DNA of 34,081 nt from a virus (Duplodnaviria > Caudoviricetes), in the IMG/VR virus record IMGVR_UViG_3300016667_000440, positions 1 through 34,081 of that record; one strand, 5' to 3'. The first letter of the stretch is position 1. Every line of letters starts with the position of its first letter. Both the position numbers and the translations under genes were made by a program. Positions 14,003-34,081 of the stretch are shown here, piece by piece. A model generated the notes under the pieces. That model searched no databases. It saw only the letters and a program-made list of their open reading frames with translations, and had not been told where the DNA came from.

Positions 14003-14006
14003 TAAG

Positions 14007-14038
14007 AAAGGGGAGCCAATAACTCCCCTTTTTATTTT
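14007..14038. terminator. intrinsic terminator between convergent operons, possibly bidirectional
   Basis: AAAGGGGAG-ccaataa-CTCCCCTTT followed by TTATTTT on the + strand; the A-rich 5' side gives a weaker U-tract on the - strand. Sits between the stops at 14002 (+) and 14037 (-). Confidence 0.88.
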
Positions 14039-17000
14039 AATATTCATTATTCTTATCTCTTTCAAATGGTTCAAATAGTTTTGCAAGTTGAAAACCATAT
14101 AACCATTTAAAACTATAATAAAAAAGAGGAGTATCATCTTTTTTCTTAGCTTTTTTACCTGTTTTACCAGAAAGATGAATTAATGACCTACCTTCAGCTT
14201 CACCAAAAATATCTAAGGCTTCATCAAAAGTATTACCAAGGGTGCTATAAAATTCATCAGCTAAACCCATAAGAGGGATAGGATTTTTAAATAAAGCATA
14301 CCAGTCAGCAGGATTGATTATACCAACTAACTCTCTACGATATCTATTAAGAGTTCTATAAAGTTCTCGCGTGGCTAAGTTTTTTTTATAGTACTTCTCA
14401 TCATCATCACCTCCACCTGCTAACATAGATAATAATGTATATATACCTATAATAAATCTTAATTCTGTAGCAAGAGCTTTTATTTGACCTTGTTTATATT
14501 CTAAAAAATCTTCAAATCTATAGGTACCATTAGCAACTGCAGGTATATTAGGATTTTGTAATTTATAATGTTCAAAAGCTACTCTAGCTCTATGTTCATT
14601 AACTTGATATCTTAAAGGTGATGTTGCTGACATTTTGTCAAAAAATCCACCAAATGTAACTATTTCAAAACTAAGTTTAGCTACACTTTGTGCTATATAA
14701 CCAAGTAATCTAAATGAAGCTTTTTCATCAGGACCTAATTGATCAGTTAAAAAAGCAGTATATCTAGCTTCAGTAATAGTACGAGTTCTAGGTGAATATC
14801 TTAAACTACTTCTATTAGAATTATTAACAAAAATATTAATAAGTCCATCATCAATACCTCTAAACCTTTCTTCAGCAAGAGCAGGTAACCAACCTCTAAA
14901 AGCCATAGCTAACTTACCAAACATAGTAGTATTAAATGCATTTAAATCTTCAGAGTTTATACCACCTTTAATAGTATTAACAGTAGCCATAACAGTACCT
15001 CTAAATTCAGAATATAATCTTGCACCTTCTTTAGTTAATCCATTCTTATCAAGAATACCATCTATAATAAGATCATCACCTTCAATTCTAGCTGTATCTA
15101 ATAAACTTTTATAAGTACCAGCTTCTCTATCTTTTTTAGTTAATCTTGTTAATTGTCCATTAAGAATAGTATAATTTTGTAACATACTATACATTACTTG
15201 TTCATCAACATGTTCATCACCTGATCTAAAAGCAGCTAATAAAGTATCATAATTTATTAGTTTAGCAACTTTATTTTTAGATGAAAATTCTTTAGCAACA
15301 TCAGTACCACGTTTATTTGCATAAGGTTGAAAAAAGTTAGCTAAAGCAAAGTATAATTCTTTATTTCTAAATCTATCGTTTAAAGATTTTCTAAACTGTT
15401 GTTTAGTATAAAAATAACCTTTTTCAGCTTCAAATAAAGCATTAGTTCTAGCACCAGCTAAGTTAACTGTAGCTGATTTAAAACTAAGTGCTAATTGTTT
15501 TAATTGTTGATAATTTTTACCTTTTAAAAGTAATTGACCAAGTTCATTACCTTGAGCAGACATACCATATAAATGAAAATCTACTAATTGTTCAAATGTT
15601 TTAGATTCATCACTTTGTTTAGATTTCTCTCTATTAGGAGTATTAACACCACTAATTGATTTAGTAGTACCATCACTAGTAGTTTCAACAACACCTTTTG
15701 TAGCTAATATTTCTTTTAAAGCTTCCATATTAGCTTCAATCTGTTTAAGATTGTTATAATTATAAGCCATCTCAGCAAATAAAACTACACTTTTAGATAA
15801 GTCAAAAGATTTTAAACTATTATCTATATTTCCTTGTTGATTAATAATAGGATTAATAAATAATCTAGGTATTTGTCTTTTAGCTAAACCAGTTTCAGGA
15901 TCTATTTCAGTACGAATTGTCATAGTATCTTGTCTATACGTTGTAACATTTTCTTGAATAGACATCATTTCTTTAAACTTTTCTATTGAAAGTGTAAAGT
16001 TACCTGTTAAATATTGTTCTACTAAATCAGCTTTAATATTAGGAATAAAGTTATTTGGTATTTTATTATATGGTAAATCTAAAAGTATTCTAAATTCTTC
16101 CATACTATCATTCCAAAAATTATAGTAATCTAATAATGGTTTATTATTTTTAATCTTTAAAAAATCAGGATTAAAATCAGATTCAGATAAAGTACTTTCA
16201 TCAACTTCTTGATAAATATACCAATAATCACTATACTTTACTTTATTGTTTACATTATCAGGATTATTTTCTTTCATCCAGTCATCAAGTATTGAACTAT
16301 TATCTTGATCAGCAACACTTATTGAGTTAATAGCCATAAACTTAAGTTTACGTTCTTCATAAATTTCTTTATAATTATCTTTAAACTTAAGATGTTTTTT
16401 TAAAAAAGCACTATCTTTTGAATCTCTAGCAATTTTAAGTTTATCATAAAACTCTGCTTTTATTTTAGTATGTAAATTACCAGTTTTTTCATTTACTAAT
16501 AACTTATATACACTAAAACCAGGCATTCCATTAGCTTGACCCCACTTTTGTATTTCTTCATCAAACTTTTTAAGTTTTTTAGAAAATGATTGTACAGACA
16601 ATCTTGTGTTATCATTAGCTCTACTTATTTTATTATAAGCTTCTTTAAATATAGTATTATTAATACCACTAAACTTTCTAAAAAGTTTATCCCACCAACT
16701 TATGCTTTTATCTCCTTTAAGAAGTTCTTGTTGATCAGCACTTAAATTTCTATCAATAAGTTTTTGTTGTAATATTTTTGCTAAAGCATCAGTCTTACCA
16801 CCTAATACATTAATTGCATTAATATATTCTATTTTTTTAGCATCTGATAAGCTAGGAAGAGTTTTAAGAAACTCTGAAGAACTTGCTGCAATACTTTTAA
16901 ATATAGCAATATCTGCTTTTAAATCAAGAATTTTATCATTACTTAAATACTCAGGACTATTAGGATTATCAATATCTTTAGTAATATTATTAAAATCATC

Positions 17001-18224
17001 TAAATAATTTTTAACAATGCTTTCATATTCTTTTTTTACATATTCAAAATCTTTAGATAACATTAATTGACTAATACTAGTATTTAAATTTCTAATTCTA
17101 GTCATAAGTTTTTTATACTCAGGAGAACTTTGTACAAGTTCTTGAGCACGTTTAGTTAAGTTATTTCTAAGAATTAAAGCATCTTCTAAACTTTGATTTA
17201 ATGTTTCACTACCAGTATCTTCTAATATAAGAGGGATTTGTTGTAAAAATTCATTTGCACCAGTACCAATTTTAATACTTTTTATCTTACCAGTAAGTGT
17301 TTGACCTGGTTTTTTAGTAGTATCTGTTTTAACTTTACTTTGAAGATTCATTTGAATAGGAGCAACTCTAGCAAATCTATAATTTTTAACACCTAAAGTT
17401 TTACCCATTTCCATAAGTAATGGTATCTGAGCATTAAAATCTTCCATCTTATAATCAGGAATCCAATTAGGATCTGTAATTCTTCCTGCTTTAACAGAAG
17501 ATGGTTTAGGAGTAATAGTTTTCCAATCTATAAGACCACCAGTTTTATCTGAAAAAACAACATGAACGTCAGCAGTACCACCTATATTTTTAAGTTTATT
17601 AAATAGAGTAGCTTCAACTTGTAATAAAGCTTTACCATTAGGATTTATTTTTTTCTGAGTATCAATAATAAATTTAATATTATTTTCAATTTCTTTAAAT
17701 AAATTATCCCAATCAGTATTAGAAGGCAATCCTAATTCTTGTTGAATAGTTGCTAAAGACTTAACTTTATTTTTATCATAAATAGATTCTAATATGTTTG
17801 TAGAATCATTAGCAATTAAAAACTTAAATATATCTTCTATTGCTTTATGAACTTTAGTACCAGCATTAGCTTTAATTTCATTATCAGGAAGTTTATTTTC
17901 ATCAGCAGCAGTACCAGCACCTCGTCTTCTACTATATCTAGCTTTAGCAATATCTGTAGTTCTACCTTTAAATGCTAGTTCTTTAGTATCTAACCACACA
18001 TAACGCATAGTTTTACCACTAGGATCTAAATGATATCCTTTAGTTAATTGTGTATTATCTACTAACTCAGTAGTTAACTTATCTTGTATTACTTTAAGCC
18101 TATTAAAAACATCTTGTACACTTTCATTAGGATCAGATGATAACCAATTACTTGTTATCTTATTATTAACAGCATCTCTAACTTCAGCAATTGTTGTTTT
18201 ATTTGGATCTATTGAACAACTCAT
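14037..18224 (-). CDS. large virion cargo/ejection-type protein with an N-terminal PD-(D/E)XK nuclease domain
   Basis: 1395 aa. AGTKVH...E..L....GGTADV....LIDWKT nuclease motifs, a long helical body and a hydrophobic segment FIIGIYTLLSMLAGG near the C-terminus. Located in the giant-gene block with the virion RNAP. Confidence 0.7.
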   Translation of the reverse strand: MSCSIDPNKTTIAEVRDAVNNKITSNWLSSDPNESVQDVFNRLKVIQDKLTTELVDNTQLTKGYHLDPSGKTMRYVWLDTKELAFKGRTTDIAKARYSRRRGAGTAADENKLPDNEIKANAGTKVHKAIEDIFKFLIANDSTNILESIYDKNKVKSLATIQQELGLPSNTDWDNLFKEIENNIKFIIDTQKKINPNGKALLQVEATLFNKLKNIGGTADVHVVFSDKTGGLIDWKTITPKPSSVKAGRITDPNWIPDYKMEDFNAQIPLLMEMGKTLGVKNYRFARVAPIQMNLQSKVKTDTTKKPGQTLTGKIKSIKIGTGANEFLQQIPLILEDTGSETLNQSLEDALILRNNLTKRAQELVQSSPEYKKLMTRIRNLNTSISQLMLSKDFEYVKKEYESIVKNYLDDFNNITKDIDNPNSPEYLSNDKILDLKADIAIFKSIAASSSEFLKTLPSLSDAKKIEYINAINVLGGKTDALAKILQQKLIDRNLSADQQELLKGDKSISWWDKLFRKFSGINNTIFKEAYNKISRANDNTRLSVQSFSKKLKKFDEEIQKWGQANGMPGFSVYKLLVNEKTGNLHTKIKAEFYDKLKIARDSKDSAFLKKHLKFKDNYKEIYEERKLKFMAINSISVADQDNSSILDDWMKENNPDNVNNKVKYSDYWYIYQEVDESTLSESDFNPDFLKIKNNKPLLDYYNFWNDSMEEFRILLDLPYNKIPNNFIPNIKADLVEQYLTGNFTLSIEKFKEMMSIQENVTTYRQDTMTIRTEIDPETGLAKRQIPRLFINPIINQQGNIDNSLKSFDLSKSVVLFAEMAYNYNNLKQIEANMEALKEILATKGVVETTSDGTTKSISGVNTPNREKSKQSDESKTFEQLVDFHLYGMSAQGNELGQLLLKGKNYQQLKQLALSFKSATVNLAGARTNALFEAEKGYFYTKQQFRKSLNDRFRNKELYFALANFFQPYANKRGTDVAKEFSSKNKVAKLINYDTLLAAFRSGDEHVDEQVMYSMLQNYTILNGQLTRLTKKDREAGTYKSLLDTARIEGDDLIIDGILDKNGLTKEGARLYSEFRGTVMATVNTIKGGINSEDLNAFNTTMFGKLAMAFRGWLPALAEERFRGIDDGLINIFVNNSNRSSLRYSPRTRTITEARYTAFLTDQLGPDEKASFRLLGYIAQSVAKLSFEIVTFGGFFDKMSATSPLRYQVNEHRARVAFEHYKLQNPNIPAVANGTYRFEDFLEYKQGQIKALATELRFIIGIYTLLSMLAGGGDDDEKYYKKNLATRELYRTLNRYRRELVGIINPADWYALFKNPIPLMGLADEFYSTLGNTFDEALDIFGEAEGRSLIHLSGKTGKKAKKKDDTPLFYYSFKWLYGFQLAKLFEPFERDKNNEY

Positions 18225-18451
18225 TTTATATATTCTGATTTATTTGATTTATTTATTTCATTTCTAGATTTAGTTCTATTAATACAAAATCTAACTCTTC
18301 TATTATCAAGTATCCATATCTCACCATTATCTAAAGCAACAGTAAAATAAAGATAATCTTCTTCATGTGTTTCATTAACTAAAAATGCATATCCCTCAGC
18401 ATCAAACTCAGGGATATACACAGGTATTGTTGGATTTAATTGTAATAACAT
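18221..18451 (-). CDS. small conserved phage hypothetical protein
   Basis: 76 aa, overlapping both neighbours. MLLQLNPxIPV...G.A.L....E....F.VALD.GEIW...N..VR...N.T..R resembles a recurring small phage family (from recall). Confidence 0.7.
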   Translation of the reverse strand: MLLQLNPTIPVYIPEFDAEGYAFLVNETHEEDYLYFTVALDNGEIWILDNRRVRFCINRTKSRNEINKSNKSEYIK

Positions 18452-20076
18452 TATTCACATTTAATTGGTATAGTACCATCATTTACTAAACTGTTAAAAG
18501 CTCTAGTTTCATCACTAGACATATCTACTCCAATATCAGTAGCTGTATCTCCAACATTGCCTACAAATGATTTAAATCCTTCTATAGTAGGATTAGTTGT
18601 TGTATCAAGATATTGAGAGTATAGTTGTAGAGCTTGTTGTTTTTGTTGTGGGGTTATAAATAAATCTGCTAAGTAACCACTAGTACTTATTACTTTATTT
18701 GTAGGAACTTTAGCTACTGTAGCATCTATATCAGATTTCCAATCTTCAAATCCATAAGTAGCACCTCTCTCATCAAACCTTCTTTTAAACTCTGCTTTGG
18801 GTATGGTAATTACTTTATCAAAATCTGACATTCTTTCTTTAAGAATATTAGTATTTGATACAAATAAAATCTTACCTTCTCTTTGAGCCTGTACTTTTAA
18901 TCTATCATAAAGATTAAGCATAAACTCATTATACTCTTTAGGTTTTCTACCTTTATATTCTTGTCTAGTTTCAGAACCTCTATTAGCATCTACAAAAGCA
19001 TTGACTTCATTTTTATAATCATCATCAAGAGTTATAAATCTTCCCTCACCTTGTTTCTTTAAAAAGCTTTTACCAATAGTAGGATGCCCAAATACTACTT
19101 TATCATTAGGAGTAATCATTTGATTAAACCCTAAAGCTTCATACACAGCATTAGCTAATTCAGGATTAGATTCAAATAGTTCTGATACACCTGGTTTAAC
19201 ACTATAACCATATCTTTTTTCTATAACTTTAGTAGTAGCGTTGATTATTTCATCTAAAGCAGAATAATCTTTATTTACAAATCCTAATTTTTCTAAAATG
19301 CCGTTTATTATTTTAACAAATTCTTCATAAACACTTGATTTTTTACCTCCTTTATACCCAGATAGTGTAACATTTTTAAGCTTTGCTTGAAAATTAGGAT
19401 TAGTCATTCCCTCTGTATAAAATTCCCACCATCCTATAACACCATATTCATTTTTAAATTCAGGTAAAGTTTTTACATAATCAAATAAAGTAATTAATTC
19501 TGTTCTAAATTCCTGTTCTTCATTAATAACTGTATCTAACAAACTATGTAAAAATTCATGAAGTTTATATCTAGAAGGTTCAGTTGTTGATTTAGAATTA
19601 AAAATAACGGTTGGTTTTTCAAAAAGTTCCCTTTCATTAAGTCCTATAATATTTCCTTGATATTTATCATTTATTACAAAATCAAAACTATTTAATTTAT
19701 TTAAATCTATAGAAAGTAAAAAACTTTTTAATTTTTTTTCAAAATCATTTACAGGAATAATGCTTTCTAAAAATTGTTTAGCTGTTACTTTATTACCTTC
19801 TTTTTTAAGATTTATTATTTCTTGTTCAGAAAGTGTTTTGCCAAAATCAGAATAATCTGCAAAACTTCTTTTAGACTCAAATAGTTTTGCTATTCCTGGT
19901 TTAACACTAGTTATAGGAGAAATACCCAACTCTTGTAAAGTTGGGTATCTATCATATATTTCATTCTCAGTCATCCATTTAGAAACCATCATAGCAAACA
20001 CGCCTTGTTTCTGTCCACTTTCAGCTAGTAGCTTTTGGAATTCAGGATTACTAATTGTTATACAAAATATAGCCAT
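18451..20076 (-). CDS. polyvalent protein: zincin-like metallopeptidase plus P-loop kinase-like domain
   Basis: HEFLH at 19546-19560 with a downstream EFYTEGMTNPNF; GHPTIGKS at 19066-19089; repeated SVKPGxxxLFES segments. Confidence 0.75.
   Translation of the reverse strand: MAIFCITISNPEFQKLLAESGQKQGVFAMMVSKWMTENEIYDRYPTLQELGISPITSVKPGIAKLFESKRSFADYSDFGKTLSEQEIINLKKEGNKVTAKQFLESIIPVNDFEKKLKSFLLSIDLNKLNSFDFVINDKYQGNIIGLNERELFEKPTVIFNSKSTTEPSRYKLHEFLHSLLDTVINEEQEFRTELITLFDYVKTLPEFKNEYGVIGWWEFYTEGMTNPNFQAKLKNVTLSGYKGGKKSSVYEEFVKIINGILEKLGFVNKDYSALDEIINATTKVIEKRYGYSVKPGVSELFESNPELANAVYEALGFNQMITPNDKVVFGHPTIGKSFLKKQGEGRFITLDDDYKNEVNAFVDANRGSETRQEYKGRKPKEYNEFMLNLYDRLKVQAQREGKILFVSNTNILKERMSDFDKVITIPKAEFKRRFDERGATYGFEDWKSDIDATVAKVPTNKVISTSGYLADLFITPQQKQQALQLYSQYLDTTTNPTIEGFKSFVGNVGDTATDIGVDMSSDETRAFNSLVNDGTIPIKCE
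19166..19909. repeat. 39 bp imperfect direct repeat pair (19166-19204 and 19871-19909) flanking the zincin domain
   Basis: ttagattcaaatagttctgatacacctggtttaacacta vs ttagactcaaatagttttgctattcctggtttaacacta, 34/39 identical and in frame. Confidence 0.9.
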
Positions 20077-20486
20077 TAGTGTAGATTTTCGAGTTTGTAC
20101 ACAACATGAGCAAATTGCTCAAGTATATTATCAATCATTTGTTGTATATAACCTTCAGTAACTTTAGTTCTCATAGACTCAATCTTAGCCATTTCTTTCT
20201 TAATATAAGAAATAGGTTCTACATTATTAGTAATATTCATACTAGTGTAGTTCATCATAAGACCAGTCTTAACAAAACTCTTTTCTACTAAATCATCATT
20301 AAGATCAGCTAGTGATGAGTAGAATGCACCAAGAGCTTCATGCATTGCAAATGATTTATCTCTTGCTTGTAAATGTACTATATGCATTTGAATTTCAACT
20401 TCAAATAAGCATTGTGATATAGCTTGCACAGCAGCTTTAGTTGAACCAGCAGGTTCCATTTGACTTCCTTTTAGTTTAGGTAACAT
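20076..20486 (-). CDS. ferritin/Dps-like four-helix protein (DUF5856-like)
   Basis: HIVHLQ...SFAMHEALGAFY..L.DL.D.LVE...MIDNI......YKL matches phage Dps/ferritin-like proteins. Confidence 0.8.
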   Translation of the reverse strand: MLPKLKGSQMEPAGSTKAAVQAISQCLFEVEIQMHIVHLQARDKSFAMHEALGAFYSSLADLNDDLVEKSFVKTGLMMNYTSMNITNNVEPISYIKKEMAKIESMRTKVTEGYIQQMIDNILEQFAHVVYKLENLH

Positions 20487-20506
20487 AATATTTTATATTT
20501 ATTTAT

Positions 20507-23500
20507 TTAACAATTAATCATAAATTTAATTGCTTTTTCTTTATCAATTAGTAACATTGTATTTAATTGATCTATAGCATCTTTTTCAGATTCAGCACCA
20601 TACTTAGCTATCATTTTATCTAATATAGTAAATTTTAGTTCATCTGAAAAACCTTTAAGATTATAAAATGTATCAGCTTGTGGTGTAGTTTGTAATCTAG
20701 GATTAGAACTACTAATAGATTTACCTAACTGTTGTTCTACATGTTTACCAATTATATCTACAAACTCATTTGCTAATTCATTACTAAGTTGAGCAAATCT
20801 TTTTTCTACAGCAACTGTTCTTCTATTTGCTATAATAATATCATCTCGATTTATTTTACTTAACTCTTTTGCTAAAGGTCTTAAAGCATCTAATCTTTTC
20901 TTGTCTTCTTCAGTAAGAAAATCAAACTCATTTAAATTTAAATCTGCTAATATCATTATATTATCAGCAACTTGATCTATAGATGTTTTAAAAGCATTTA
21001 ATCTACCTTTTGGTCTAGGACCTTCACGAAAATCATTTGATAAAATTACTTTAGCATTTCCATAAGCATCTAATCTTTCATTAAGTCCTTCTATAGGTGT
21101 AAAAGTATTATCAGAAACATCAGCTTGTGGTTGAGTATTAGGTAATAATTTATCAAAGTTTTCATTAAACACAATGTTAAATGGAATAGGTCCAGCAGAA
21201 CTAAACATGTCTGCCATTTCTTTTCCTGTATATCCATTTAGATTGCTTTCAGAATAATCAGACACTAAAAACTCTTTTTCTGGATTTTGCTTAGCATATT
21301 CATATAAACCTTTAATTTCTTCTATAATTTCTTGAGGAGTACTAGATTTTTTTACATCATAATATTTTTTAGTTACAATACCATAAGATTTTCCTTGAAT
21401 TCCTCTAGGTTTTCCTTGTATTGCTCCAAATCTTTCTTTAGCTAATTTAGCAGCTCCTGCTCCATGAGTAGGAGCACCACCTTTAGAACTACCTATATTT
21501 GAGCCAAATACAAATATTTGATTATCTTTTAAAGTAGTTATTTTTCCAGAGTATGTTTTTCTAGTAGTACTTACACTAGCTTGTGGTTGAGTAGGTGTAG
21601 TAGATTGAGTAGATCGAGCAGGTTTAGTAGGTTTATTAACTGATTGTTTAATTGCATTTTTTATTTCATAAACTAAATCCTTAAACTTACTTATATCTTG
21701 AGTATAATCCATACCATCATATCCACCTATTGGATTTATAATTTCATCTGTTACAGTATTTACTAACTTTATTTTACCATTAGTATATCTAAAAGTTCTA
21801 AATATTTTAAACGGATTAATTTCTTCCTCATTTGGATTATATAAATCTTCATCAGGATTATATGAAGTATCTTCATTATCTGGAGCAGGAGCAAAATCAT
21901 CTGGATCAAAAGGTGATTCATTCTCAACACCTCCCATATCAGCTAATACTTCTAAAGCTTCATTTTCAAGTTCTTCTTCTCTAAGTTTACTAAAATAACC
22001 ACCAATTTTATTTTTATATACTTTCTCATTAAATGAATTACTTAGCATAAATTTAACAGTAAAATCTGCTAATTTCTCATCAGTAATTGATTTAGGATCT
22101 AAATTAACTAACGCCTCCAGGATATTTTTTTGTGCTTCATAAGATATTACTTTAGAGTATTGATAAGTACCATTACTAATACCTGATTGAAATATATTAA
22201 AAATTACTAAATCATTATATAAACTTGGATTAAGACTTTTTAATTCTTGATAAGCTTCAATTAAACTGTTTGATTCACCTACAGTTAATTGAGTTAAAAA
22301 TATTTTTAAATTATCAATTGCTATATCTCTTTCAACATTATTACCTATTTTCTTATTTAATATTGGTACTAAGTTTTGAATAATAGGATTGTTTATATAT
22401 TTTTCATCATATTTAATATCTTGAATCTTCCTAGGAAGGCTATTATTACCTGTAAATAATTTATTAAATCTATCTTTAAATTTACCTGATTCATTTTGTA
22501 TTAAATAAGTAATTAAACTTTCATCAAACTTTTGTATTGCTTTTTTCTTTTCTTCATTTGTAAATATATGAGAAAATAAATTAAGTTTTATTTGGTTTAA
22601 TTTTTCTTTAACAATTTTATTTTGTCTAGTAATATATAGTTTACCAAATACATCACTGATAGATTGTCTACTATTAACAAATGGAGCTAATAATGTTTCA
22701 TTTAAAAGTTTTTCTACATCTTCTTGAGGTACAATACCCTCATCAGACATAACCTCTGCATATAAGTTAATAGTAACATCATCTACTTCAGAAGGACTTT
22801 TTAGATACCTTGTATCAGCAGAAATTAAATCTTTAACTTTAGTTATTGCTTTAGCTTGATCTGAAGCTGCAATATAAGTTAAAAGATTACTCATTTCATC
22901 TTTACTATATTTTGTTCTTAAAAAATCTAGTATTAGTTTATTTGAAGATAATCCAGGATAAGCATTTGTTGATAAAGCACGTCTAGCATTTTTTATTTTT
23001 AAATACTGTACAACAATTGGAGAATCTATAATATCAATAATACTTTGAGTTGGAGTACCTCTACTTACTAAATAACAAACAGTATTTAAAGTACTAAGAC
23101 ATATATTAACAAACGCAGCATAATCATCTTTAACAATATCTACTTGACTAGTCATTAAAGCACTATATATATTTTCTACTTCTTCTTTTAAATCAGTAGT
23201 AGTAGTATTAGCTAATTGTATATAATTACCAACTTGTGTATTATTAATACCAGGTATATTTAATTTAGCACTAGATTTAAGTCTAATATTATATCTTTCA
23301 GCAATATTTTGAAATGTAATCCAAGTAGCAATAATACCTACACCTTTTTTACCACCAGTAAAGTTTAAAACTGCATCAACTAAAGCATCAAGTTGAAACA
23401 TATTAATACCAGGCTTGTTGGCTATTTTTAAGTTAGCCTTTTGTTTATTTTTAGCAATTTGTTTAAAACTACCTTCAATTACAGGAGTTAAGAATCTTTT

Positions 23501-26500
23501 AGCTCTAGCAGGATGAAGTAGTAATTTTAATTCTATATCAAGAAGTCTATTTTCATGAGCTTGTTTTGGATTAAGATCACTAATATCTACTTGATTAAAT
23601 TGATCTCTATAAGAGTCTTTAATAGTTTCTCTATTAATATATAATAATTCTAGTATATCTTTTTTCTGAGCATTAATATCAGTTTTTCTTTGCTTACTTT
23701 GTTTATCATATAATAAGATATTATCAATAACTGTTTGTATATATCTTACATCTTCAAACAATTGTTTTTTTGTTTTATCTAATTCTTCAAAGTTTTCAAT
23801 ATAAGTTTTAGCTTCTTTAGCTTCACTTCTAGTTTTTCTATATACTTTATCTAAATACTTACTTATTTCTATAGCTCTATCACGCTTTTCTTTTCTAGCT
23901 TTATTAAGTGCATCAAAAGCATCTTTAATGTTATTTGTTTTAGAACCAGTAATATTTTCTACAAAATTATAAAACTGTTTAAATTCTTCTTTAACATTTA
24001 ATTTATTAGCTAATTCTTGTTCTTTAATATCAACTAAATCTTCAACTAATGCTGAATAATCTTGATCATTATCTAAAACTTCTTTACCTATAGTATTATA
24101 AAACCAATTATCAAATAAGTTTTCTTTATTATATTCATATTGATAAGGTTTATTACTATCATTTAAGTTAGGCATATAGATAGTTAATTTATCAATATCA
24201 TAATCCGATCCATTTTTTACAATAAACTCACTAGGAACTAATATTGTTTGATTATAGATAGGATTTAACCATCTCCTTACTCTGAGTACATCTGTACTAG
24301 ATAATTGCTGATGTGGAATCCTAAGTGCCTTTATCATAGGTACATCATCAAGATTACCTGACTCAAACTTTTGATCTAACTCAGCATTTAAAATATCTAA
24401 TAGTTTATTAATATTTCTACCAGCTTGTGGATATTGTTGAAATAACTTATCTATATCTTTAGGATTTAAAGGCATTGCACATTCTGCAGGTATTAATTCT
24501 AATACATTACCATTCTCATCAAGTATAGGTTGGTAATACTTTAAATAACTACCTGCTGTAAACTTACCATCAAGTACTTGTCTACTAGCACTTTCCCATC
24601 CAGTACTAGGAGCTTGTGGTAACATAGTACCATTTCTTTTTAATATAAGAATATTGTTAGTAATAATACTAGTTAAGATATATTGTACTTTGTTATAATT
24701 AGGTAATGATTCAATTGGTTTTAAGTTTTCATCAGAATCTAACCAATTTACAATAGCATCTAAAATATTATCTGGAGTACCTCTTTCAACAGCAGCATCT
24801 TTAATAAGATTAACAAATCCTATAGGATCAGTTATATTATTAGCATTATCTATTTTATACTCATCAAATAAAGTATTAGTTAATTTATTAACATAATCAC
24901 TAATTGCTTGATCTTTTTCTTCTAAAAGATTAAATAAATCAGATTGTTGTCTTTGTTCTTCATAAGATAAACTATCCCATTGTTCTACAATACCATTAAA
25001 ATCAATAGGTAACTCACCATCTAACATAATACCAGCATTCTCATTCTTTCTAGCCTGAGTAGCATCAACTATTTTATCTTTAGTTTCATAAGCAATTTCT
25101 TGTTGCTTACCCATATATCTAAAATCTAATACACCTCTTTCATTATCTTCAATAGCAAGTGTATTAAATCCAACAGTATATTGACCATCTTCTGTTTTTA
25201 TAGTATTATAAAAATCTCTAGAAGTAGCAGCACCAAATTTAGCTGCAGAACTAAAATGTATAACATCTATACCATTTTCTAGCATAAAGTTATTAAGTTG
25301 TTCTAATACAGTACCTCTAACCATACTAGGCATTAAAAATCCATAAGATGTTTTTCTACCTGCAACAACTCCTATTCTATCTTGCCAATTACCATCAGTA
25401 CCTTCTGCAATATAATCTTCTCTACTTTTTTGATAGTTAGGACCTACATATTGAAATTTTTGTTGTGTAAAAGGTCTTAAACTATTGTTAATATAATATT
25501 CAGCTGACATACCTTCAGGTACAGTGTATAGATTATAAAACTCTTCTTCAGTAGCACTAATTGCTTTAATTTCTTTCTTAGCTAATTCTAACCTACCAGG
25601 ATTAATACCTTCAGTTCTAAATAAAGTTTCTATAGCAAAGAATATATTACCTATACTATAACCATCTGATTCTTCAAATCCTTTAGTATAAGCTTGATAC
25701 TCAGGTGAATTTTCACCAAATAATGTTTTAAGTTCATTACCAATAGAACTTATTGTTTCAGGATCATTAATAATTAACTCATTAATGTCACCATTAAAAT
25801 CTTTTTTATATTCAAATGTTTTACCATCTAAAGTAATTTTAAAATCATTTGACTTTAAAATTGAATTTAAGAAACTATTAGTAGTATTATCAACAACAGA
25901 TACTTGTTTAGTTGATGATTGCATATTTAACCTTTTAATCATATCATAGATTAAAATACCATCTTTTGCTTTAGCACTATATAAAGCAGGATCACCAAAA
26001 AATAGTTTAGATTGTTCTACAGCACTAATAAAATGTTTAGCTGCAGCAATTTTTATAAGTTCATCATAGTTATTTTTAATAGCAGGAATACGTTTAAAAT
26101 ATTCTTCAGCTACTGCTTTATCAATACCATCACCTTTACCTGTACTATTTATTTCAGCCATTTGGGCTTTAACAACACTAGTATCAAGATAGTTATTTAC
26201 CCATTTATTAACTAACTTTTGAACATTTACATCACTTGATAAGTTATAAGTATTAAGGTTTTCTTTAAGTAACTTATCTAATATTTTATTATCATTTTCA
26301 GTTTTACCAAATAAACCATCAAATAAAACAAAGTTAACTCCTTGTTTATCCATTAAAGGTATACCTGTTTTAGTAGTTCTAACTGATTTAATTCTTTTAA
26401 GTTCAGTTCTTAAATATTGATATATATAAGTTTTAAATTTATTTTCCCAATCAGGAGCAGAATAAAATTCACCTCCATTACCTAAAATATCAGTAGAACC

Positions 26501-28381
26501 ATAAGGCATTTTAATACCAAGAAAACTACTTCTATCTGAATGTTTAACTGGTGTTAATACATTATGTAAATTACTATTAATAAATGTAGACCAAAGATCT
26601 GTTTCAACCATTGAACCTGTAGTAGTATTCTCATTTTTAGTTGTAGATTTCATACCATCTAAAAGAGAAAACTCAATATTTTCACCATCTATTAGTCTTT
26701 CAAGAATCATACTATCTGATGACCATAGATTTAATATTTCAGGAGTTTCATTTTCTAATTGTTCTAAAATTAGTTTTTTAAGTTTATTTTGATCTTTTAA
26801 TTTAGAATTATTTTTTCTAACTTTTTTAATAGTATTTTTAACTCTATTTAATAATAAAGTTTGATAACTATTTAAGTTATTTTTAGATATTCTATCACCA
26901 TTACTATTAAATAACTGACCATCATAATCTTGTCTATAAGGACTATTATGTTCTATTAAACCAACACTTAATACATATAAATCTTTATTTACTTTAGGAT
27001 TAAATAGTTCTTCAAAATCAAAGTCTTTTCTTTTTAAATTCTTTTCTAAGTTATCTATAAAATCTGATACTACATCTATAAAAGTATTATTAGCACCTTT
27101 AATAAGTATAGTATTATTAGATGCTGGTGAATCAGGATCTAATAAATCATAATTGGCTATAGGAAATTCTAATAACTCTAAAATTTCTTCAGCTTCTTTA
27201 TCTTTAATTAATTCTTTTAACTCAGATACAAAATTTTTATCAAGAAGTTTATTTAATAAACCACTTCTCCATTCATCCATCATCTTACGCTGAATACTAT
27301 TACTATCAGCATCTTGAGGTTTAATTACATAACCATTTTCACCAGGTTGTACTACATAAGTTATTAAGTTATACTTATTATTACTAAATGATTGTATAAA
27401 CTTAATCATTAAGTTAATCTTTGGTAAAGATGTTATACTATTATCTTTTAATTCAGCAATAGTATTACCTTCATCATCTGAAATAACATCAATAGCATTA
27501 AATACTTTATTATATAACCATTGTAATTCTGGAAATTGATCTTTATTATTTTCTATAACTTCTATAAAATTTTCTACTGTTGGAGTTACATTAGCAAATA
27601 AATTAGTTAATGTGTTATTAATTTCACTTTGATCCATAGCTCTAATTAATCCTAATGCATCTTCAGATTCATTAATATCATAACTAGAAAAATCTTTTAA
27701 ATCTTCAGCATTTAATAATCTAGGAACACCTGATAATAATAATTTAATACCTCTAGAAAAACTATCTTTTCTATTTTGTTCAATAGATTCTTTTATCCAA
27801 CTATCTTTAATTTGTTCTTTATTATTATTGTTTTGAGTATCTTTATCTTCATCTTCTTGATTTTCTTTAAAATTTAATACAGTACTCATATAAGTTTTAA
27901 ATTGCTCATATACTGCATTACGATGACTACCTTCTGAAGGATCAACACCTAAGTCTTCAGCTAAATTATTATTAGCATAATCTTGAGCTAAAGCAATAGA
28001 AATTTCATCATGCTGTTCTGGTAAATTATTAATAACTTTACTTAATGCTTTTTCATATACTGGTTGAAAAATTTCAGCCGCATCCATACTATCATCTAAA
28101 AGATTAGCATAGTCTTGACTATTATCTAAATCATTAACTAAAGTACTAATAAAATAATATTTTAAACTACTAAACAATTCATTTCTTTGAGCAGCATTTA
28201 ATTCTACACCTTCAAAAATAAATTTATTAAGTATATCAGGTGTTTGTTTAAGTATTTTATCAGCTTCTTTTAATGAAGGTATAACACCATTATTTCTATA
28301 ATATAAAAGATAAGCTTTATCTTCTTTATACTTAGCTTCTAAAGCTTTCCATTCATCAGTATTTATATTAGGACACGTCAT
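20507..28381 (-). CDS. crAss-like virion-packaged single-subunit double-psi-beta-barrel RNA polymerase with C-terminal accessory domains
   Basis: 2624 aa. Catalytic GSDYDIDKL (DYDID at 24191-24205) preceded by RIPHQQLSS; also FFGDP..Y, KR, DG, SAAK and KQQE motifs. Size and context match phi14:2 gp66-type RNAPs, which carry DFDID. Confidence 0.9.
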   Translation of the reverse strand: MTCPNINTDEWKALEAKYKEDKAYLLYYRNNGVIPSLKEADKILKQTPDILNKFIFEGVELNAAQRNELFSSLKYYFISTLVNDLDNSQDYANLLDDSMDAAEIFQPVYEKALSKVINNLPEQHDEISIALAQDYANNNLAEDLGVDPSEGSHRNAVYEQFKTYMSTVLNFKENQEDEDKDTQNNNNKEQIKDSWIKESIEQNRKDSFSRGIKLLLSGVPRLLNAEDLKDFSSYDINESEDALGLIRAMDQSEINNTLTNLFANVTPTVENFIEVIENNKDQFPELQWLYNKVFNAIDVISDDEGNTIAELKDNSITSLPKINLMIKFIQSFSNNKYNLITYVVQPGENGYVIKPQDADSNSIQRKMMDEWRSGLLNKLLDKNFVSELKELIKDKEAEEILELLEFPIANYDLLDPDSPASNNTILIKGANNTFIDVVSDFIDNLEKNLKRKDFDFEELFNPKVNKDLYVLSVGLIEHNSPYRQDYDGQLFNSNGDRISKNNLNSYQTLLLNRVKNTIKKVRKNNSKLKDQNKLKKLILEQLENETPEILNLWSSDSMILERLIDGENIEFSLLDGMKSTTKNENTTTGSMVETDLWSTFINSNLHNVLTPVKHSDRSSFLGIKMPYGSTDILGNGGEFYSAPDWENKFKTYIYQYLRTELKRIKSVRTTKTGIPLMDKQGVNFVLFDGLFGKTENDNKILDKLLKENLNTYNLSSDVNVQKLVNKWVNNYLDTSVVKAQMAEINSTGKGDGIDKAVAEEYFKRIPAIKNNYDELIKIAAAKHFISAVEQSKLFFGDPALYSAKAKDGILIYDMIKRLNMQSSTKQVSVVDNTTNSFLNSILKSNDFKITLDGKTFEYKKDFNGDINELIINDPETISSIGNELKTLFGENSPEYQAYTKGFEESDGYSIGNIFFAIETLFRTEGINPGRLELAKKEIKAISATEEEFYNLYTVPEGMSAEYYINNSLRPFTQQKFQYVGPNYQKSREDYIAEGTDGNWQDRIGVVAGRKTSYGFLMPSMVRGTVLEQLNNFMLENGIDVIHFSSAAKFGAATSRDFYNTIKTEDGQYTVGFNTLAIEDNERGVLDFRYMGKQQEIAYETKDKIVDATQARKNENAGIMLDGELPIDFNGIVEQWDSLSYEEQRQQSDLFNLLEEKDQAISDYVNKLTNTLFDEYKIDNANNITDPIGFVNLIKDAAVERGTPDNILDAIVNWLDSDENLKPIESLPNYNKVQYILTSIITNNILILKRNGTMLPQAPSTGWESASRQVLDGKFTAGSYLKYYQPILDENGNVLELIPAECAMPLNPKDIDKLFQQYPQAGRNINKLLDILNAELDQKFESGNLDDVPMIKALRIPHQQLSSTDVLRVRRWLNPIYNQTILVPSEFIVKNGSDYDIDKLTIYMPNLNDSNKPYQYEYNKENLFDNWFYNTIGKEVLDNDQDYSALVEDLVDIKEQELANKLNVKEEFKQFYNFVENITGSKTNNIKDAFDALNKARKEKRDRAIEISKYLDKVYRKTRSEAKEAKTYIENFEELDKTKKQLFEDVRYIQTVIDNILLYDKQSKQRKTDINAQKKDILELLYINRETIKDSYRDQFNQVDISDLNPKQAHENRLLDIELKLLLHPARAKRFLTPVIEGSFKQIAKNKQKANLKIANKPGINMFQLDALVDAVLNFTGGKKGVGIIATWITFQNIAERYNIRLKSSAKLNIPGINNTQVGNYIQLANTTTTDLKEEVENIYSALMTSQVDIVKDDYAAFVNICLSTLNTVCYLVSRGTPTQSIIDIIDSPIVVQYLKIKNARRALSTNAYPGLSSNKLILDFLRTKYSKDEMSNLLTYIAASDQAKAITKVKDLISADTRYLKSPSEVDDVTINLYAEVMSDEGIVPQEDVEKLLNETLLAPFVNSRQSISDVFGKLYITRQNKIVKEKLNQIKLNLFSHIFTNEEKKKAIQKFDESLITYLIQNESGKFKDRFNKLFTGNNSLPRKIQDIKYDEKYINNPIIQNLVPILNKKIGNNVERDIAIDNLKIFLTQLTVGESNSLIEAYQELKSLNPSLYNDLVIFNIFQSGISNGTYQYSKVISYEAQKNILEALVNLDPKSITDEKLADFTVKFMLSNSFNEKVYKNKIGGYFSKLREEELENEALEVLADMGGVENESPFDPDDFAPAPDNEDTSYNPDEDLYNPNEEEINPFKIFRTFRYTNGKIKLVNTVTDEIINPIGGYDGMDYTQDISKFKDLVYEIKNAIKQSVNKPTKPARSTQSTTPTQPQASVSTTRKTYSGKITTLKDNQIFVFGSNIGSSKGGAPTHGAGAAKLAKERFGAIQGKPRGIQGKSYGIVTKKYYDVKKSSTPQEIIEEIKGLYEYAKQNPEKEFLVSDYSESNLNGYTGKEMADMFSSAGPIPFNIVFNENFDKLLPNTQPQADVSDNTFTPIEGLNERLDAYGNAKVILSNDFREGPRPKGRLNAFKTSIDQVADNIMILADLNLNEFDFLTEEDKKRLDALRPLAKELSKINRDDIIIANRRTVAVEKRFAQLSNELANEFVDIIGKHVEQQLGKSISSSNPRLQTTPQADTFYNLKGFSDELKFTILDKMIAKYGAESEKDAIDQLNTMLLIDKEKAIKFMINC
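20672..21593. repeat. three short direct repeats encoding TQPQA-type linkers in the RNAP C-terminus
   Basis: agcttgtggttgagta is exact at 21578-21593 and 21122-21137; atcagcttgtggt is exact at 21119-21131 and 20672-20684. Confidence 0.88.
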
Positions 28382-28397
28382 ATTAAAATTTTATTTA

Positions 28398-31300
28398 TTA
28401 CTCTGTACTTTTGTTTTTATTTAATTTAGTAGGTTTAGATGCAGGTGCTAATATATCATCATTTATATCAGTATTAGTAGTTGTCTGTTTTGATTTAAAA
28501 CCAAAATGTGCCATTCCTTGTGCCATATCTTTTGCATAAGCTTCCATTTCTTCTTCAGTCATTTCACCAGCAGTTCTTTTTTTACCAGTACTTTTTTTAC
28601 TACTACTTTTTTTACCACTACCTGTTTTACAATTTTCTTGTTGTTCTTTAGCTTTTTCAGTAGTTGTTTCAGCTGCTTGATTACTAGTTTTTGTAGTTTT
28701 ACCTTTACTAGCAGTTTTTTTACCTTTATATGTTTTTTTCTCAGGTTTTGCTAAAGGTTGATCTGCTATAAAAGTATTTTTAGTTTTTATTAAACCATCA
28801 TTATCTGTTTTTAATATAACATTTTTTGAAGCAAATAATATATCTTCAGACTTAGTTTTTGAATCAGCAGTTTCTAAAGGTTCTGATACAGCATTTGTAG
28901 TTAATATTGGATCACTTGCTTTACCTCCATTAAACAAATAAGAAAGATATCCTCCTTTTATTTGTTCCCAAGATATCTCATTTGTAGTTCTATTTAAATA
29001 AGGTTTATAATAAACTCCTCCTCTACCAGCAGCTGTTTGCAACATTGCTGTAGGTATATTAATTCTTTTAGTAGCTAAGAAAGCAATAAGATTTCTACGT
29101 TCTACACTATCTTTTCCTAAATTAGCAATAGTTACAGAAGTAAATATATTGTTATTGTTAGGATCAGGAAAATGTACTTTACCACCTTGGATATAAATAC
29201 TATTTTTATTTAACTTACCTTTACCACTTTTAGTAGCATTTTTAGGTACTCCCCAATAGATAATATTATTCATTAAAGATAATCTATTAGAAGACATAAA
29301 AACAGGCAATTTACTACCTTGTTTTTTATCATAATAATACTCACCTGTTTCAGAATTATTTATATTAACAAATAAATCTTGTAAAGCACTATCTTTATTA
29401 CTACCATACTTTTGAATAATATGTAATATTAAATCAATTTCATCACTATTTACAAATCTTTGTGTAGCATAAAAATATTCTTTTGTTTCTTTATTGTAAA
29501 TAATAACTGAACCTATTTTAGCATTCTTAACTATAATATTACTACCTTGTAATTTTTGCATAGATTTAGTAACTACTGTTACAGTTACTTTATCTAAACC
29601 TTCCTCTGTTGAAACATCAATGCCTCTTTTATATCTAAGAACATTTCTTACAGGTTTGTAATTATTAATCTTATTACCTTTACTATCTTTATTATTAGTA
29701 GTTAATAATATACCATTAGTAACTGAATCTATAGGTAAATATACTTCACCTTCTTTTAAATCATTAATAATTTTACTAATAGATTCTTTATGTTTAGCAA
29801 TAGCAAAATTAACAATCTCTTCTCTTATTTCGAATAAAGGTACAAGATTTTCATTTTTCTTCCAACTTAAAGCACTAAATGGATCATGTTTAGTATTTAT
29901 AATAGCACTACTTGGTAATGGTCCTTCATGTTTACTATATTTCTTATAAAAATCTAATAAACCTTTCATATTGATTTTATCAATAGAACCATCTTTTTTT
30001 AAAGTACCAGCAAATAATCTATCAGATTCAGGTAAAAATGTAAATACATATCCACCATCTCCATTAAGTTTACCATTAACATCAGCTTTAATAAATGAAC
30101 CATCTTTAGTAGATACCATAGCAACTACTATAGTATTATCTGTTTCATTACCTTTTAATGCATTCTTAACAGCTTTTTTTAGATCATCAGGCATCTGATC
30201 ATCTGTTTTATAATGGAATGCTTGTAGAGTATATTCAGCTTTCTTATATGGATCTTTAATATCAGGATTCATTTCTAAGAATGAGTTCCATCTTCTAGAG
30301 TCATCATTAGAATTAAGTATAGGTTTACCATTATTATCATATAAAGTTTGGAATGTTTTAGAATCTGGTAAGTATTCCACAACTTTATTAGTTGTATAAT
30401 ATAAATTACTACTTAAAGCACCTTTGTATAAGTTAGCAGATGCTTGTTGAGTAGGAGGATTATCTTGACTAAACTTAGGATCACTTTCTTGGCTAAGAGG
30501 TATTTTAGTTGCTCTTAGTGCACGATTTAAAGCAATAGCATAATCTATTGCTATTTTATCTATATTAGCTTTTAAATTATCTACAAAAGATTCTTGTGAT
30601 TTAAATTCAATTAAATTATCAATTGTTCTTAATTCTTTATTTAATTTATCAAGATCTTGTTTAGTAAGTAATATTTCATTTTCAATACTTTGTTGTTCAG
30701 CATAATTAGCTTGAATTTCAAGTTCTTGTTGTACCTTATAATAATCTTGCATAAACCTATCATAAGCTTGATTAGGTGTTATGTTATTACGTTCAGCATA
30801 TTTATTTATACCATATTGAAATCTAGCAAATTGAGTAGGATCTTTAAATAATTTTTCAATATTATTTCCAGATACAGGATAAAATACTTTCCATTTATTA
30901 GTAAACCAAGCAGGCATATCTGCTTGTTTAGTACCAACTACAAAGTTTTTATAAGCAACTGATTTAGCTTTTAGAGCTTCAAGAAAATCTATTTTTCTAT
31001 TTAATATCTGAATTCTATTTTCAACACTTTGTTTTAATTCATTTAAATTATCTAAAGCTTCATTATAATCAGTCATGTCAGCTAATGTTTCTAAATCTTC
31101 AACAAGACTTAAACCCATTACTCTATCTATATTATCTATAAATCCACTTTCTAAAGTATTTAAAAATTGTCTAATAGAAAAGTTTTCTTTTTCTAAAGAC
31201 TCTTTAATTAAATCAATTAAATCATTAACTTCTTGTTTTTGTCTATTAATAGCATTAATAGATTTATTAATTCTTTCTATTGATTTATTACAAACTTCTA

Positions 31301-34079: not shown

Positions 34080-34081
34080 AC

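What the first reader, a model, noticed from the sequence alone, without database searches (positions are those of the whole stretch)
14037..28631. Terminal cysteines suggest head-to-tail disulfide chaining of injected proteins
Seen (counted by eye): the 1395 aa protein has one Cys (residue 3, MSC). The 541 aa protein has two (residue 5 and the penultimate residue, IKCE). The 2624 aa RNAP has five, including residue 3 (MTCPN) and the last residue (MINC). The upstream giant has two visible Cys, one in its C-terminal tail (28629-28631). Among these four large genes, each C-terminal Cys is followed by a protein with an N-terminal Cys, and the last protein lacks a C-terminal one. Inference: short terminal docking modules link the cargo into an ordered chain for packaging or sequential ejection, released in the reducing cytoplasm. 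Inter-chain metal binding is an alternative.
Basis: partly seen in the sequence, partly recalled or inferred. Interest (0 to 1): 0.85.

Follow-up and report, generated by a model that had tools for sequence, protein, structure and literature searches.

The report
Terminal cysteines link crAss cargo proteins
Four large proteins of this crAss-like phage, one of them its RNA polymerase, carry a cysteine at each end that faces the next protein and very few elsewhere; relatives keep such a pair wherever the genes are separate and lack it where they are fused, so the proteins are likely tied end to end by disulfide bonds into one ordered chain that would be packed and injected together.

Summary
The counts are right. 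The four genes are a phi14:2 gp67-like giant, the virion RNA polymerase (RNAP), a 541-aa accessory and a gp65-like protein. Six of their 10 cysteines sit at facing ends; the giant's is 76 aa from its end. In 89 dereplicated crAss-like loci, RNAP N-terminal Cys and upstream C-terminal Cys occur together (28 both, 39 neither, 2 discordant). RNAP C-terminal Cys and downstream N-terminal Cys agree in 79 of 80. Free chain ends never carry one (0 of 63, 0 of 60). Pairs vanish at gene fusions and persist in crAss001, where the partners lie on opposite strands. The accessory is a plug-in link: 21 homologues keep both ends around swapped enzyme payloads. One modelled end pair gave weak support (0.55, best control 0.00). 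Best reading: cognate end modules dock and form a disulfide, giving an ordered chain equivalent to a gene fusion. No bond is shown in any crassvirus. A single such bond is seen by cryo-EM in cyanopodophage A4. I found no crassvirus report in print. This scan found the rule before on other DNA (335 notes, at least 283 genomes).

The parts
28398..34081 (-). gp67/gp47-like giant, first link; at least 1893 aa, N-terminus cut by the window edge
   Evidence: BLASTP to phi14:2 gp67 E 8e-5
28629..28631 (-). Junction 1 donor Cys of the giant, 76 aa from its end
20507..28381 (-). Virion RNA polymerase, 2624 aa, gp66/gp50-like; Cys3 and Cys2624
   Evidence: tblastn to phi14:2 g066 E 7e-6
28232..28381 (-). 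RNAP N-terminal module with Cys3 (codon 28373-28375); a portable module found at protein starts
   Evidence: 29 of 30 hits among 1.84 billion representatives lie at the N-terminus with a Cys in the first 8 residues
24191..24205 (-). DYDID catalytic motif of the RNAP (residues 1393-1397)
   Evidence: D1393, D1395, D1397 invariant in 24 homologues
21134..21553 (-). Swappable domain in the RNAP tail (phrog_2072; DUF7831 in a close homologue)
   Evidence: replaced by other sequence in contigs of two other studies
20507..20686 (-). RNAP C-terminal module ending in Cys2624 (codon 20510-20512), junction 2 donor
20076..20486 (-). Ferritin/Dps-like gene, 136 aa, between the junction 2 partners; not part of the chain
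   Evidence: phrog_858 E 2.6e-16, PF19174
18451..20076 (-). 541-aa accessory link: Cys5 module, zincin HExxH domain (motif at 173), P-loop domain (motif at 330), Cys540 module
19903..20076 (-). Accessory N-terminal module with Cys5 (codon 20062-20064), junction 2 acceptor; strand plus two helices, pLDDT 82-86 over residues 11-50
18451..18534 (-). Accessory C-terminal module with Cys540 (codon 18457-18459), junction 3 donor; helix plus short strand at low confidence
18221..18451 (-). 76-aa ORF between the junction 3 partners; no Pfam match; not part of the chain
14037..18224 (-). gp65/gp49-like last link, 1395 aa, single Cys3 (codon 18216-18218), free C-terminus; PD-(D/E)XK nuclease-like domain near residues 108-260
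   Evidence: BLASTP to phi14:2 gp65 E 0.002; phrog_298 E 6.8e-6; 8 of 8 homologues have Cys3 as their only Cys
14005..14033 (.). Bidirectional terminator-like hairpin closing the cargo block against the converging replication block

Best explanation
The facing terminal cysteines of these four proteins follow a rule kept across crAss-like phages, and they likely form disulfide bonds between short end modules predicted to dock pairwise, which would join giant, RNA polymerase, accessory and gp65-like protein into one ordered chain of at least 730 kDa. Shown by sequence: the pairing rule, its loss at gene fusions, bare free ends, and the accessory's fixed ends around a variable payload. Inferred: each C-terminal module docks on the next protein's N-terminal module during assembly in the reducing cytoplasm, and the Cys pair oxidises after lysis, as tail disulfides do in crAss001. 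The chain is then the functional equal of the gene fusions that other crassviruses use. It would fix stoichiometry at packaging and let the unfolded cargo thread N to C through the tail as one strand. Reduction in the next host's cytoplasm would free the parts. My odds: covalent S-S link in this order about 0.7; a role in ordering ejection, given the link, about 0.6.
For: Window: 6 of 10 Cys at facing ends. RNAP homologues: 48 of 48 have a Cys in the last 12 aa, 33 of 48 in the first 8; the 15 without are 3664-4482-aa fusions, many near-identical; interior Cys 0.035% (includes the query). Loci: of 105, 102 had one RNAP ORF, 89 after 90% dereplication. RNAP N-Cys vs upstream C-Cys: 28 both, 39 neither, 0 RNAP only, 2 upstream only, n=69. 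RNAP C-Cys vs downstream N-Cys: 78 both, 1 neither, 1 RNAP only, n=80. Architecture predicts the N-Cys in 76 of 76 rows: 44 fused lack it, 32 split have it; 9 rows without an N-end and 4 broken rows were left out. Free ends: 0 of 63 and 0 of 60. The opposite fusion (RNAP+gp65-like, 3 Intestiviridae) keeps junction 1 and has no Cys in its last 12 aa. crAss001: gp47 one Cys (2339 of 2341), gp50 C5, C1334 and C2404, gp49 only C5, although gp47 is on the other strand about 11.6 kb from the gp50 start; DAC15 and cr126_1 alike. L070 is a split form nested in a starred clade of 20 fused forms and has a full new Cys pair. Accessory family: 20 of 21 Cys5, 21 of 21 penultimate Cys, payloads ART-PolyVal 6, GNAT 4, AAA_33 1 of 20 scanned; L001 keeps both ends with another middle. 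Complex model of RNAP 2566-2624 with accessory 1-58: weak support, 0.55 (runs 0.55, 0.38, 0.55), best of 3 controls 0.00, runs agree in at least 85% of contacts, partner pLDDT at least 73; the mark was reached by 116 of 157 solved and 2 of 215 mismatched pairs, at 0.60 or under by only 18 of 157 and both mismatches. Precedent: A4 gp27 Cys1715-gp26 Cys5 disulfide by cryo-EM (PMC12002296, passages); these are the only Cys of the two proteins. crAss001 virions do form inter-subunit disulfides in tail and vertex (PMC10172136, passages).
Against: No bond or oligomer is shown for any crassvirus; cargo gp47, gp49 and gp50 are unresolved in the crAss001 map and gp66's terminal residues are missing from its crystal model. 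Independent contrasts are few: 6 changes on a FastTree tree, 4 forced by starred branches, 4 of 4 pairs concordant, sign test p 0.125. Facing modules are neighbours on the DNA in 67 of 78 cases (gap 100 bp or less), so module co-variation can be co-transfer; in the strictest subset it was not significant (221 of 2000 permutations). The 80-aa cut-off for upstream Cys was chosen after seeing the window's giant. L070 carries near-identical N-modules at both junctions (score 122), which would blur a strict order. Virion location of this phage's proteins rests on homology only.
Confidence: 0.68

Rival explanations
1. Same partners, other timing: the thiols stay free in the particle and are joined only during ejection, by the host's periplasmic disulfide machinery, to stitch a trans-envelope conduit or tether.
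For: Ejected proteins cross an oxidising periplasm; Schitoviridae ejection proteins lack Cys, which the authors tie to that passage (PMC11445570, passages). Many crassvirus hosts live in the anoxic gut, where air oxidation is limited (general knowledge).
Against: The A4 bond is present in the mature virion; purified crAss001 virions carry other disulfides. The tunnel candidates C1/C2 have no facing Cys pair: the C2-like protein has none at its C-end and the giant none at its N-end.
Confidence: 0.1
2. The two cysteines bind a shared metal ion (Zn or Fe) with further ligands, or four Cys from two junctions bind one ion, giving a non-covalent clip.
For: Sequence cannot tell S-S from S-metal-S; a ferritin-like gene sits in junction 2 here and in L001.
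Against: 0 of 112 junctions have a second Cys within 8 aa; His occurs in 16, against 17 expected by chance; A4 shows a direct disulfide.
Confidence: 0.08
3. Cys-mediated protein ligation or trans-splicing makes a true peptide-linked polyprotein, or the Cys are sites of lipid or other terminal modification.
For: Split and fused forms are interchangeable across lineages.
Against: The N-side Cys lies at position 3-6 in 111 of 112 junctions, not at the alpha-amino position; the C-side Cys lies 0-76 aa from the end; no signal peptide or intein-like domain is seen at the ends.
Confidence: 0.04
4. Two-Cys proteins close on themselves (RNAP and accessory as rings) while the giant pairs with the gp65-like protein.
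For: The Cys count in split genomes allows it.
Against: Either fusion removes exactly the two Cys that face each other and keeps the outer ones; the cognate inter-chain pair scored above controls.
Confidence: 0.04
5. The cysteines are inherited passengers of a DNA junction cassette and have no function.
For: Facing modules are usually adjacent on DNA and move together.
Against: The Cys is kept while the flanking sequence diverges beyond recognition, against an interior of 0.037% Cys; it is kept when partners are separated by genes (11 of 78 gaps over 100 bp) or by an inversion.
Confidence: 0.03

Closest known systems
Cyanopodophage A4 (Anabaena phage A-4L) pre-ejectosome pair gp27-gp26 (PMC12002296; outline and passages read)
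   Same: Two consecutive ejection proteins; the upstream one has its only Cys two residues from the C-end (1715 of 1717), the downstream one its only Cys at position 5; the C-terminal helix docks in the partner and a disulfide is seen by cryo-EM.
   Different: One link in a T7-type pre-ejectosome ring, described as stabilising. No RNA polymerase, no multi-link chain, no fusion/fission rule, no plug-in accessory. No sequence relation to crAss cargo was tested; the paper does not mention crAss.
RNAP-associated cargo block of Crassvirales: phi14:2 gp67-gp66-gp65, crAss001 gp47-gp50-gp49 (bioRxiv 10.1101/2020.03.07.982082, PMC10172136, PMC7886860, PMC10136315; passages by term search)
   Same: Homologous genes in the phi14:2 order; virion-packaged by MS in the two cultured phages; fusions known; both cultured phages show the same Cys rule.
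   Different: No mention of cargo cysteines or cargo disulfides in the main texts searched; a fourth, swappable link lies between RNAP and the gp65-like protein here.
Schitoviridae (N4, DEV) ejection proteins and virion RNAP (PMC11445570, PMC13434306; passages)
   Same: Ejected giant RNAP; strong Cys depletion linked by the authors to periplasmic passage.
   Different: N4-like proteins lack Cys altogether and use a T7-type polymerase in one polypeptide; crAss cargo keeps single Cys at facing ends.
Polyvalent proteins of phages and conjugative elements (Iyer et al. 2017, PMC5512222; passages)
   Same: Payload domains of the accessory family (zincin MPTase, ART-PolyVal, GNAT, kinase) and the idea of delivering many activities in one unit.
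   Different: There the unit is one polypeptide, thought to be cut by its peptidase; here separate genes would be joined after translation. The paper has no mention of cysteine or disulfide.

Membership tests
Crassvirales | Giant virion RNAP with DxDxD motif related to phi14:2 gp66 | tested here: met
   DYDID at 1393; tblastn hits to phi14:2 g066 and cr phages at 23-25% identity
Crassvirales | crAss-type DnaG primase | tested here: met
   111 phage records matched; the 15 best listed are crAss-type cr phages or unannotated gut phages at 32-36%
Crassvirales | crAss major capsid and muzzle proteins | tested here: inconclusive
   Outside this 34-kb fragment. In 4 related records, PF23898 in 2 (both complete ones) and PF25731 in 3, the closest relative included
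Crassvirales | Terminase and portal phylogeny; placement in a named family | not tested
   Genes not in the window; on the RNAP-core tree the window sits with environmental contigs, apart from the named families
A4-type disulfide-linked ejection proteins | Near-sole Cys at the upstream C-end and downstream N-end | tested here: met
A4-type disulfide-linked ejection proteins | C-terminal element docks on the next protein | tested here: inconclusive
   weak support for junction 2, 0.55 against 0.00, no contacts; junctions 1 and 3 not modelled
A4-type disulfide-linked ejection proteins | Disulfide present in the virion | not testable with these tools
   needs gel, MS or cryo-EM
Polyvalent proteins | Several conflict-type domains, MPTase as hub, next to virion genes | tested here: met
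   HExxH domain matches phi14:2 gp65 E 1e-5; ART-PolyVal in 6 of 20 accessory homologues
Split inteins / native protein ligation | Nucleophile at the first residue and a splicing domain | tested here: not met
   Cys at position 3-6 in 111 of 112 junctions; no intein family hit
Cys/His metal sites | CxxC or nearby His/Cys ligands | tested here: not met
   0 of 112 second Cys; His at chance level

The most novel reading that the evidence does not exclude
Crassviruses build a post-translational polyprotein: portable cysteine-tipped lock-and-key modules couple separately encoded cargo into one redox-releasable thread of fixed order, fed through the tail behind the C1/C2 tunnel. The chain is extensible, so any effector given the two right ends (the 541-aa accessory family, with peptidase, kinase, acetyl- or ADP-ribosyltransferase payloads) is packaged and injected in line with the RNA polymerase.
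Probability: 0.4. Interest if true: 0.9.

Novelty: new variant of a known kind. Interest (0 to 1): 0.78.

Why it matters
How crassviruses package several MDa of unresolved cargo and eject it in order through a channel under 50 A wide is stated as open in PMC10172136 and PMC13434306. The rule gives a specific, cheap test in two cultured phages: three proteins with one to three cysteines each, a non-reducing gel and two predicted cross-linked peptides. If true, it explains why the RNAP block can be fused, split, inverted or extended without loss. It would give a sequence signature for finding injected effectors, and it suggests a general packing device, since cyanopodophage A4 shows one such bond.

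Tried and rejected
IQ-TREE on 76 RNAP cores did not finish; FastTree was used, with long-branch warnings. Lock-and-key co-variation of modules: significant for all pairs and for cores under 40% identical (20.7 vs 10.1, 0 of 2000 permutations), 1 of 2000 across junction positions, but not in the strictest subset (221 of 2000); overall rank correlations were near zero outside the full set. Charge complementarity: rho -0.32, p 7e-4 on 112 junctions, but p 0.06, 0.10 and 0.03 after clustering, and absent in the window's own three junctions; not used as evidence. Junction modules within one genome are dissimilar in all loci but L070, yet no more than background, so selection for orthogonality is not shown. 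The opposite-strand ORF control (5 of 50 N, 8 of 50 C) may include shadow ORFs and was given little weight. Apparent exceptions: L077 and L093 are frameshifts, L031 is an RNAP broken into three ORFs that fits the rule when read together, L016 (IAS) has unknown bases at the break, L001 has the ferritin gene fused in front of an intact Met-Cys module, L046 has a Cys 62 aa from the end of a C2-like protein; L005, L017 and L025 had no single RNAP ORF by my motif and were not counted. The AlphaFold model of the accessory was poor overall (mean pLDDT 46.9) and Foldseek found nothing at E 0.001. phmmer of the RNAP against PDB found nothing. Promoter-like sites were at chance level. No RNA holder listed. 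Literature searches listed no paper on terminal cysteines of crassvirus cargo. The Nature version of Drobysheva et al. was not read, Extended Data Tables 2 and 3 of PMC10172136 are not held as text, one of its supplements is a scan, and bioRxiv supplements are closed; these may bear on the claim that it is not in print. Alternative genetic codes do not change the four ORFs from their start codons.
Full report
What the window is. A 34,081-bp fragment of an aquatic crAss-like phage; the record holds nothing more. The best holder among public runs is a freshwater metagenome. The plus strand carries replication genes: DnaB-like helicase, primase, exonucleases, ribonucleotide reductase, PhoH. A terminator-like hairpin at 14005-14033 separates them from the converging cargo block. 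The primase's best matches are crAss-type phages. Close relatives carry the crAss capsid and muzzle families. The cargo block in reading order: a gp67-like giant cut by the window edge, the RNA polymerase with DYDID at 1393, a ferritin-like gene, a 541-aa accessory, a 76-aa ORF and a gp65-like protein.

The observation. The four proteins hold 10 Cys in 6453 aa, a tenth of the rate in the plus-strand genes. Five lie within 8 residues of a facing end. The sixth, in the giant, lies 76 aa from the end before a Lys-rich tail; in close relatives the same last Cys is 17-37 aa from the end. Contigs from three other studies cover the junctions.

The rule in relatives. Among 48 RNAP proteins, the query included, all have a Cys in the last 12 residues and 33 in the first 8. 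The 15 without are long fusions with the gp67-like part. I called ORFs in 105 loci; 102 had one RNAP ORF and 89 remained after dereplication. The RNAP's N-terminal Cys and a C-terminal Cys on the upstream gene were both present in 28, both absent in 39 and discordant in 2. The RNAP's C-terminal Cys and a downstream N-terminal Cys were both present in 78 of 80. The exceptions trace to broken reading frames, unknown bases, a ferritin fusion in front of an intact module, or one C2-like protein with a Cys 62 aa from its end. Whether the RNAP is split from or fused to the giant predicts the N-terminal Cys in 76 of 76 usable rows. The chain's free ends are bare: 0 of 63 last proteins and 0 of 60 first proteins. 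Three Intestiviridae use the opposite fusion and keep only the first pair. phi14:2 gp67, gp66 and gp65 have one, two and one Cys, all at facing ends. crAss001 keeps the rule although gp47 is on the other strand, about 11.6 kb from the start of gp50. On a FastTree tree of 76 RNAP cores the state changes at least 6 times, 4 forced by well-supported branches; all 4 independent pairs agree, too few for significance (p 0.125). L070 is a split inside a clade of 20 fused forms and has gained a complete pair, its new N-module resembling that of the next gene.

What this window adds. The accessory is a removable link. Of 21 homologues, 20 have Cys5 and all have a penultimate Cys, at lengths of 302-940 aa, with 10 Cys in 10,761 interior residues. 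Payloads differ: ART-PolyVal, GNAT, AAA_33. In the window the payload is a zincin domain like that of phi14:2 gp65 and a P-loop domain 75% identical over 168 aa to part of another phage's gp65-like protein. Its C-terminal module resembles the one that ends the RNAP itself in L029 and L037, where the RNAP is followed directly by the gp65-like gene (scores 27.5 and 33; 97th percentile of background 25). I infer, with moderate confidence, that the accessory arose by splitting off the RNAP's variable tail with a new junction. Both partners of junctions 2 and 3 are separated by unrelated small genes. The RNAP's N-module is itself portable: 29 of 30 library hits lie at protein starts, on proteins of 56 to 3464 aa.

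Mechanism. One modelled pair, RNAP 2566-2624 with accessory 1-58, scored 0.55 against 0.00 for the best control. The tool rates this as weak and gave no contacts, so the distance between the cysteines is unknown. Sequence disfavours a metal site (no second Cys in 112 junctions, His at chance level) and ligation chemistry (Cys at position 3-6). A disulfide has a direct precedent: in cyanopodophage A4 the C-terminal helix of gp27 docks in gp26 and Cys1715 bonds to Cys5 (PMC12002296); I checked that these are the only Cys of both proteins. That lead came from earlier notes of this scan. crAss001 virions form disulfides elsewhere, and N4-like ejected proteins avoid Cys, which the authors link to the periplasm. 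I therefore take an ordered disulfide-linked chain as most likely (0.68). Docking, oxidation after lysis, threading as one strand and release by reduction are inferred steps. Evidence for strict lock-and-key specificity is mixed: co-variation failed the strictest test, adjacency on DNA confounds it, and L070 repeats one module.

Known and new. The genes, their fusions and their presence in virions are known for phi14:2 and crAss001. Term searches in the main texts of the gp66 preprint, the crAss001 structure paper, Yutin 2021, the 2023 review, the 2026 N4 paper and the polyvalent-protein paper found no cargo cysteine or cargo disulfide. Eight library searches listed no such report. Tables and supplements that I could not see may bear on this. 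The bond type is known from A4; the multi-link, order-wide, extensible form is not described in what I could read. This scan's earlier notes report the same rule on other genomes; they are not independent evidence and did not enter the score.

Verdict. Observation confirmed; chain topology strongly supported; disulfide likely but unshown. New variant of a known kind, interest 0.78.

Noticed in passing
window 17445-17903 (-): The gp65-like last protein carries a PD-(D/E)XK nuclease-like domain near its N-terminus (phrog_298 E 6.8e-6; PDDEXK_1 E 0.0096, under the cut-off), a possible injected nuclease.
   Followed up: partly
window 18604-18657 and 19140-19200 (-): Two short linker motifs flanking the accessory's P-loop domain draw very high contig depth in other samples and many loose ends; they look like stereotyped cassette ends shared by many cargo proteins.
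   Followed up: partly
window 20684-21578: Part of the RNAP tail is replaced by other sequence in contigs of runs X3 and X4 while the Cys-tipped C-module is kept.
   Followed up: partly
window 20076-20486 (-); L001 17741-20203: A ferritin/Dps-like gene sits inside the cargo operon; in L001 it is truncated and fused in frame to the accessory, whose own Met-Cys start is intact.
   Followed up: partly
window 23075-23101 (-): Interior RNAP Cys1761 and Cys1769; Cys1769 is invariant in 16 close homologues, an exception to the Cys-poor interior.
   Followed up: no
L070 junctions 1 and 2: A split RNAP nested among fused forms; its new N-module resembles that of the next gene (score 122), suggesting fission by copying a junction.
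   Followed up: partly
L007 625-4124; L008 1456-3129: C1-like proteins of Intestiviridae have a Cys close to the C-terminus, while the next (C2-like) protein has no N-terminal Cys; unexplained by the rule.
   Followed up: no
L092 1179-5159; L049 14233-15984; L033 17262-19751: Other lineages have accessory proteins with both terminal Cys, one of them upstream of the RNAP, so extra links arose at more than one position.
   Followed up: partly
P0100 (protein library): A 282-aa protein with a hydrophobic N-terminal part carries two internal copies of the RNAP N-module, the only non-terminal hit of 30.
   Followed up: no
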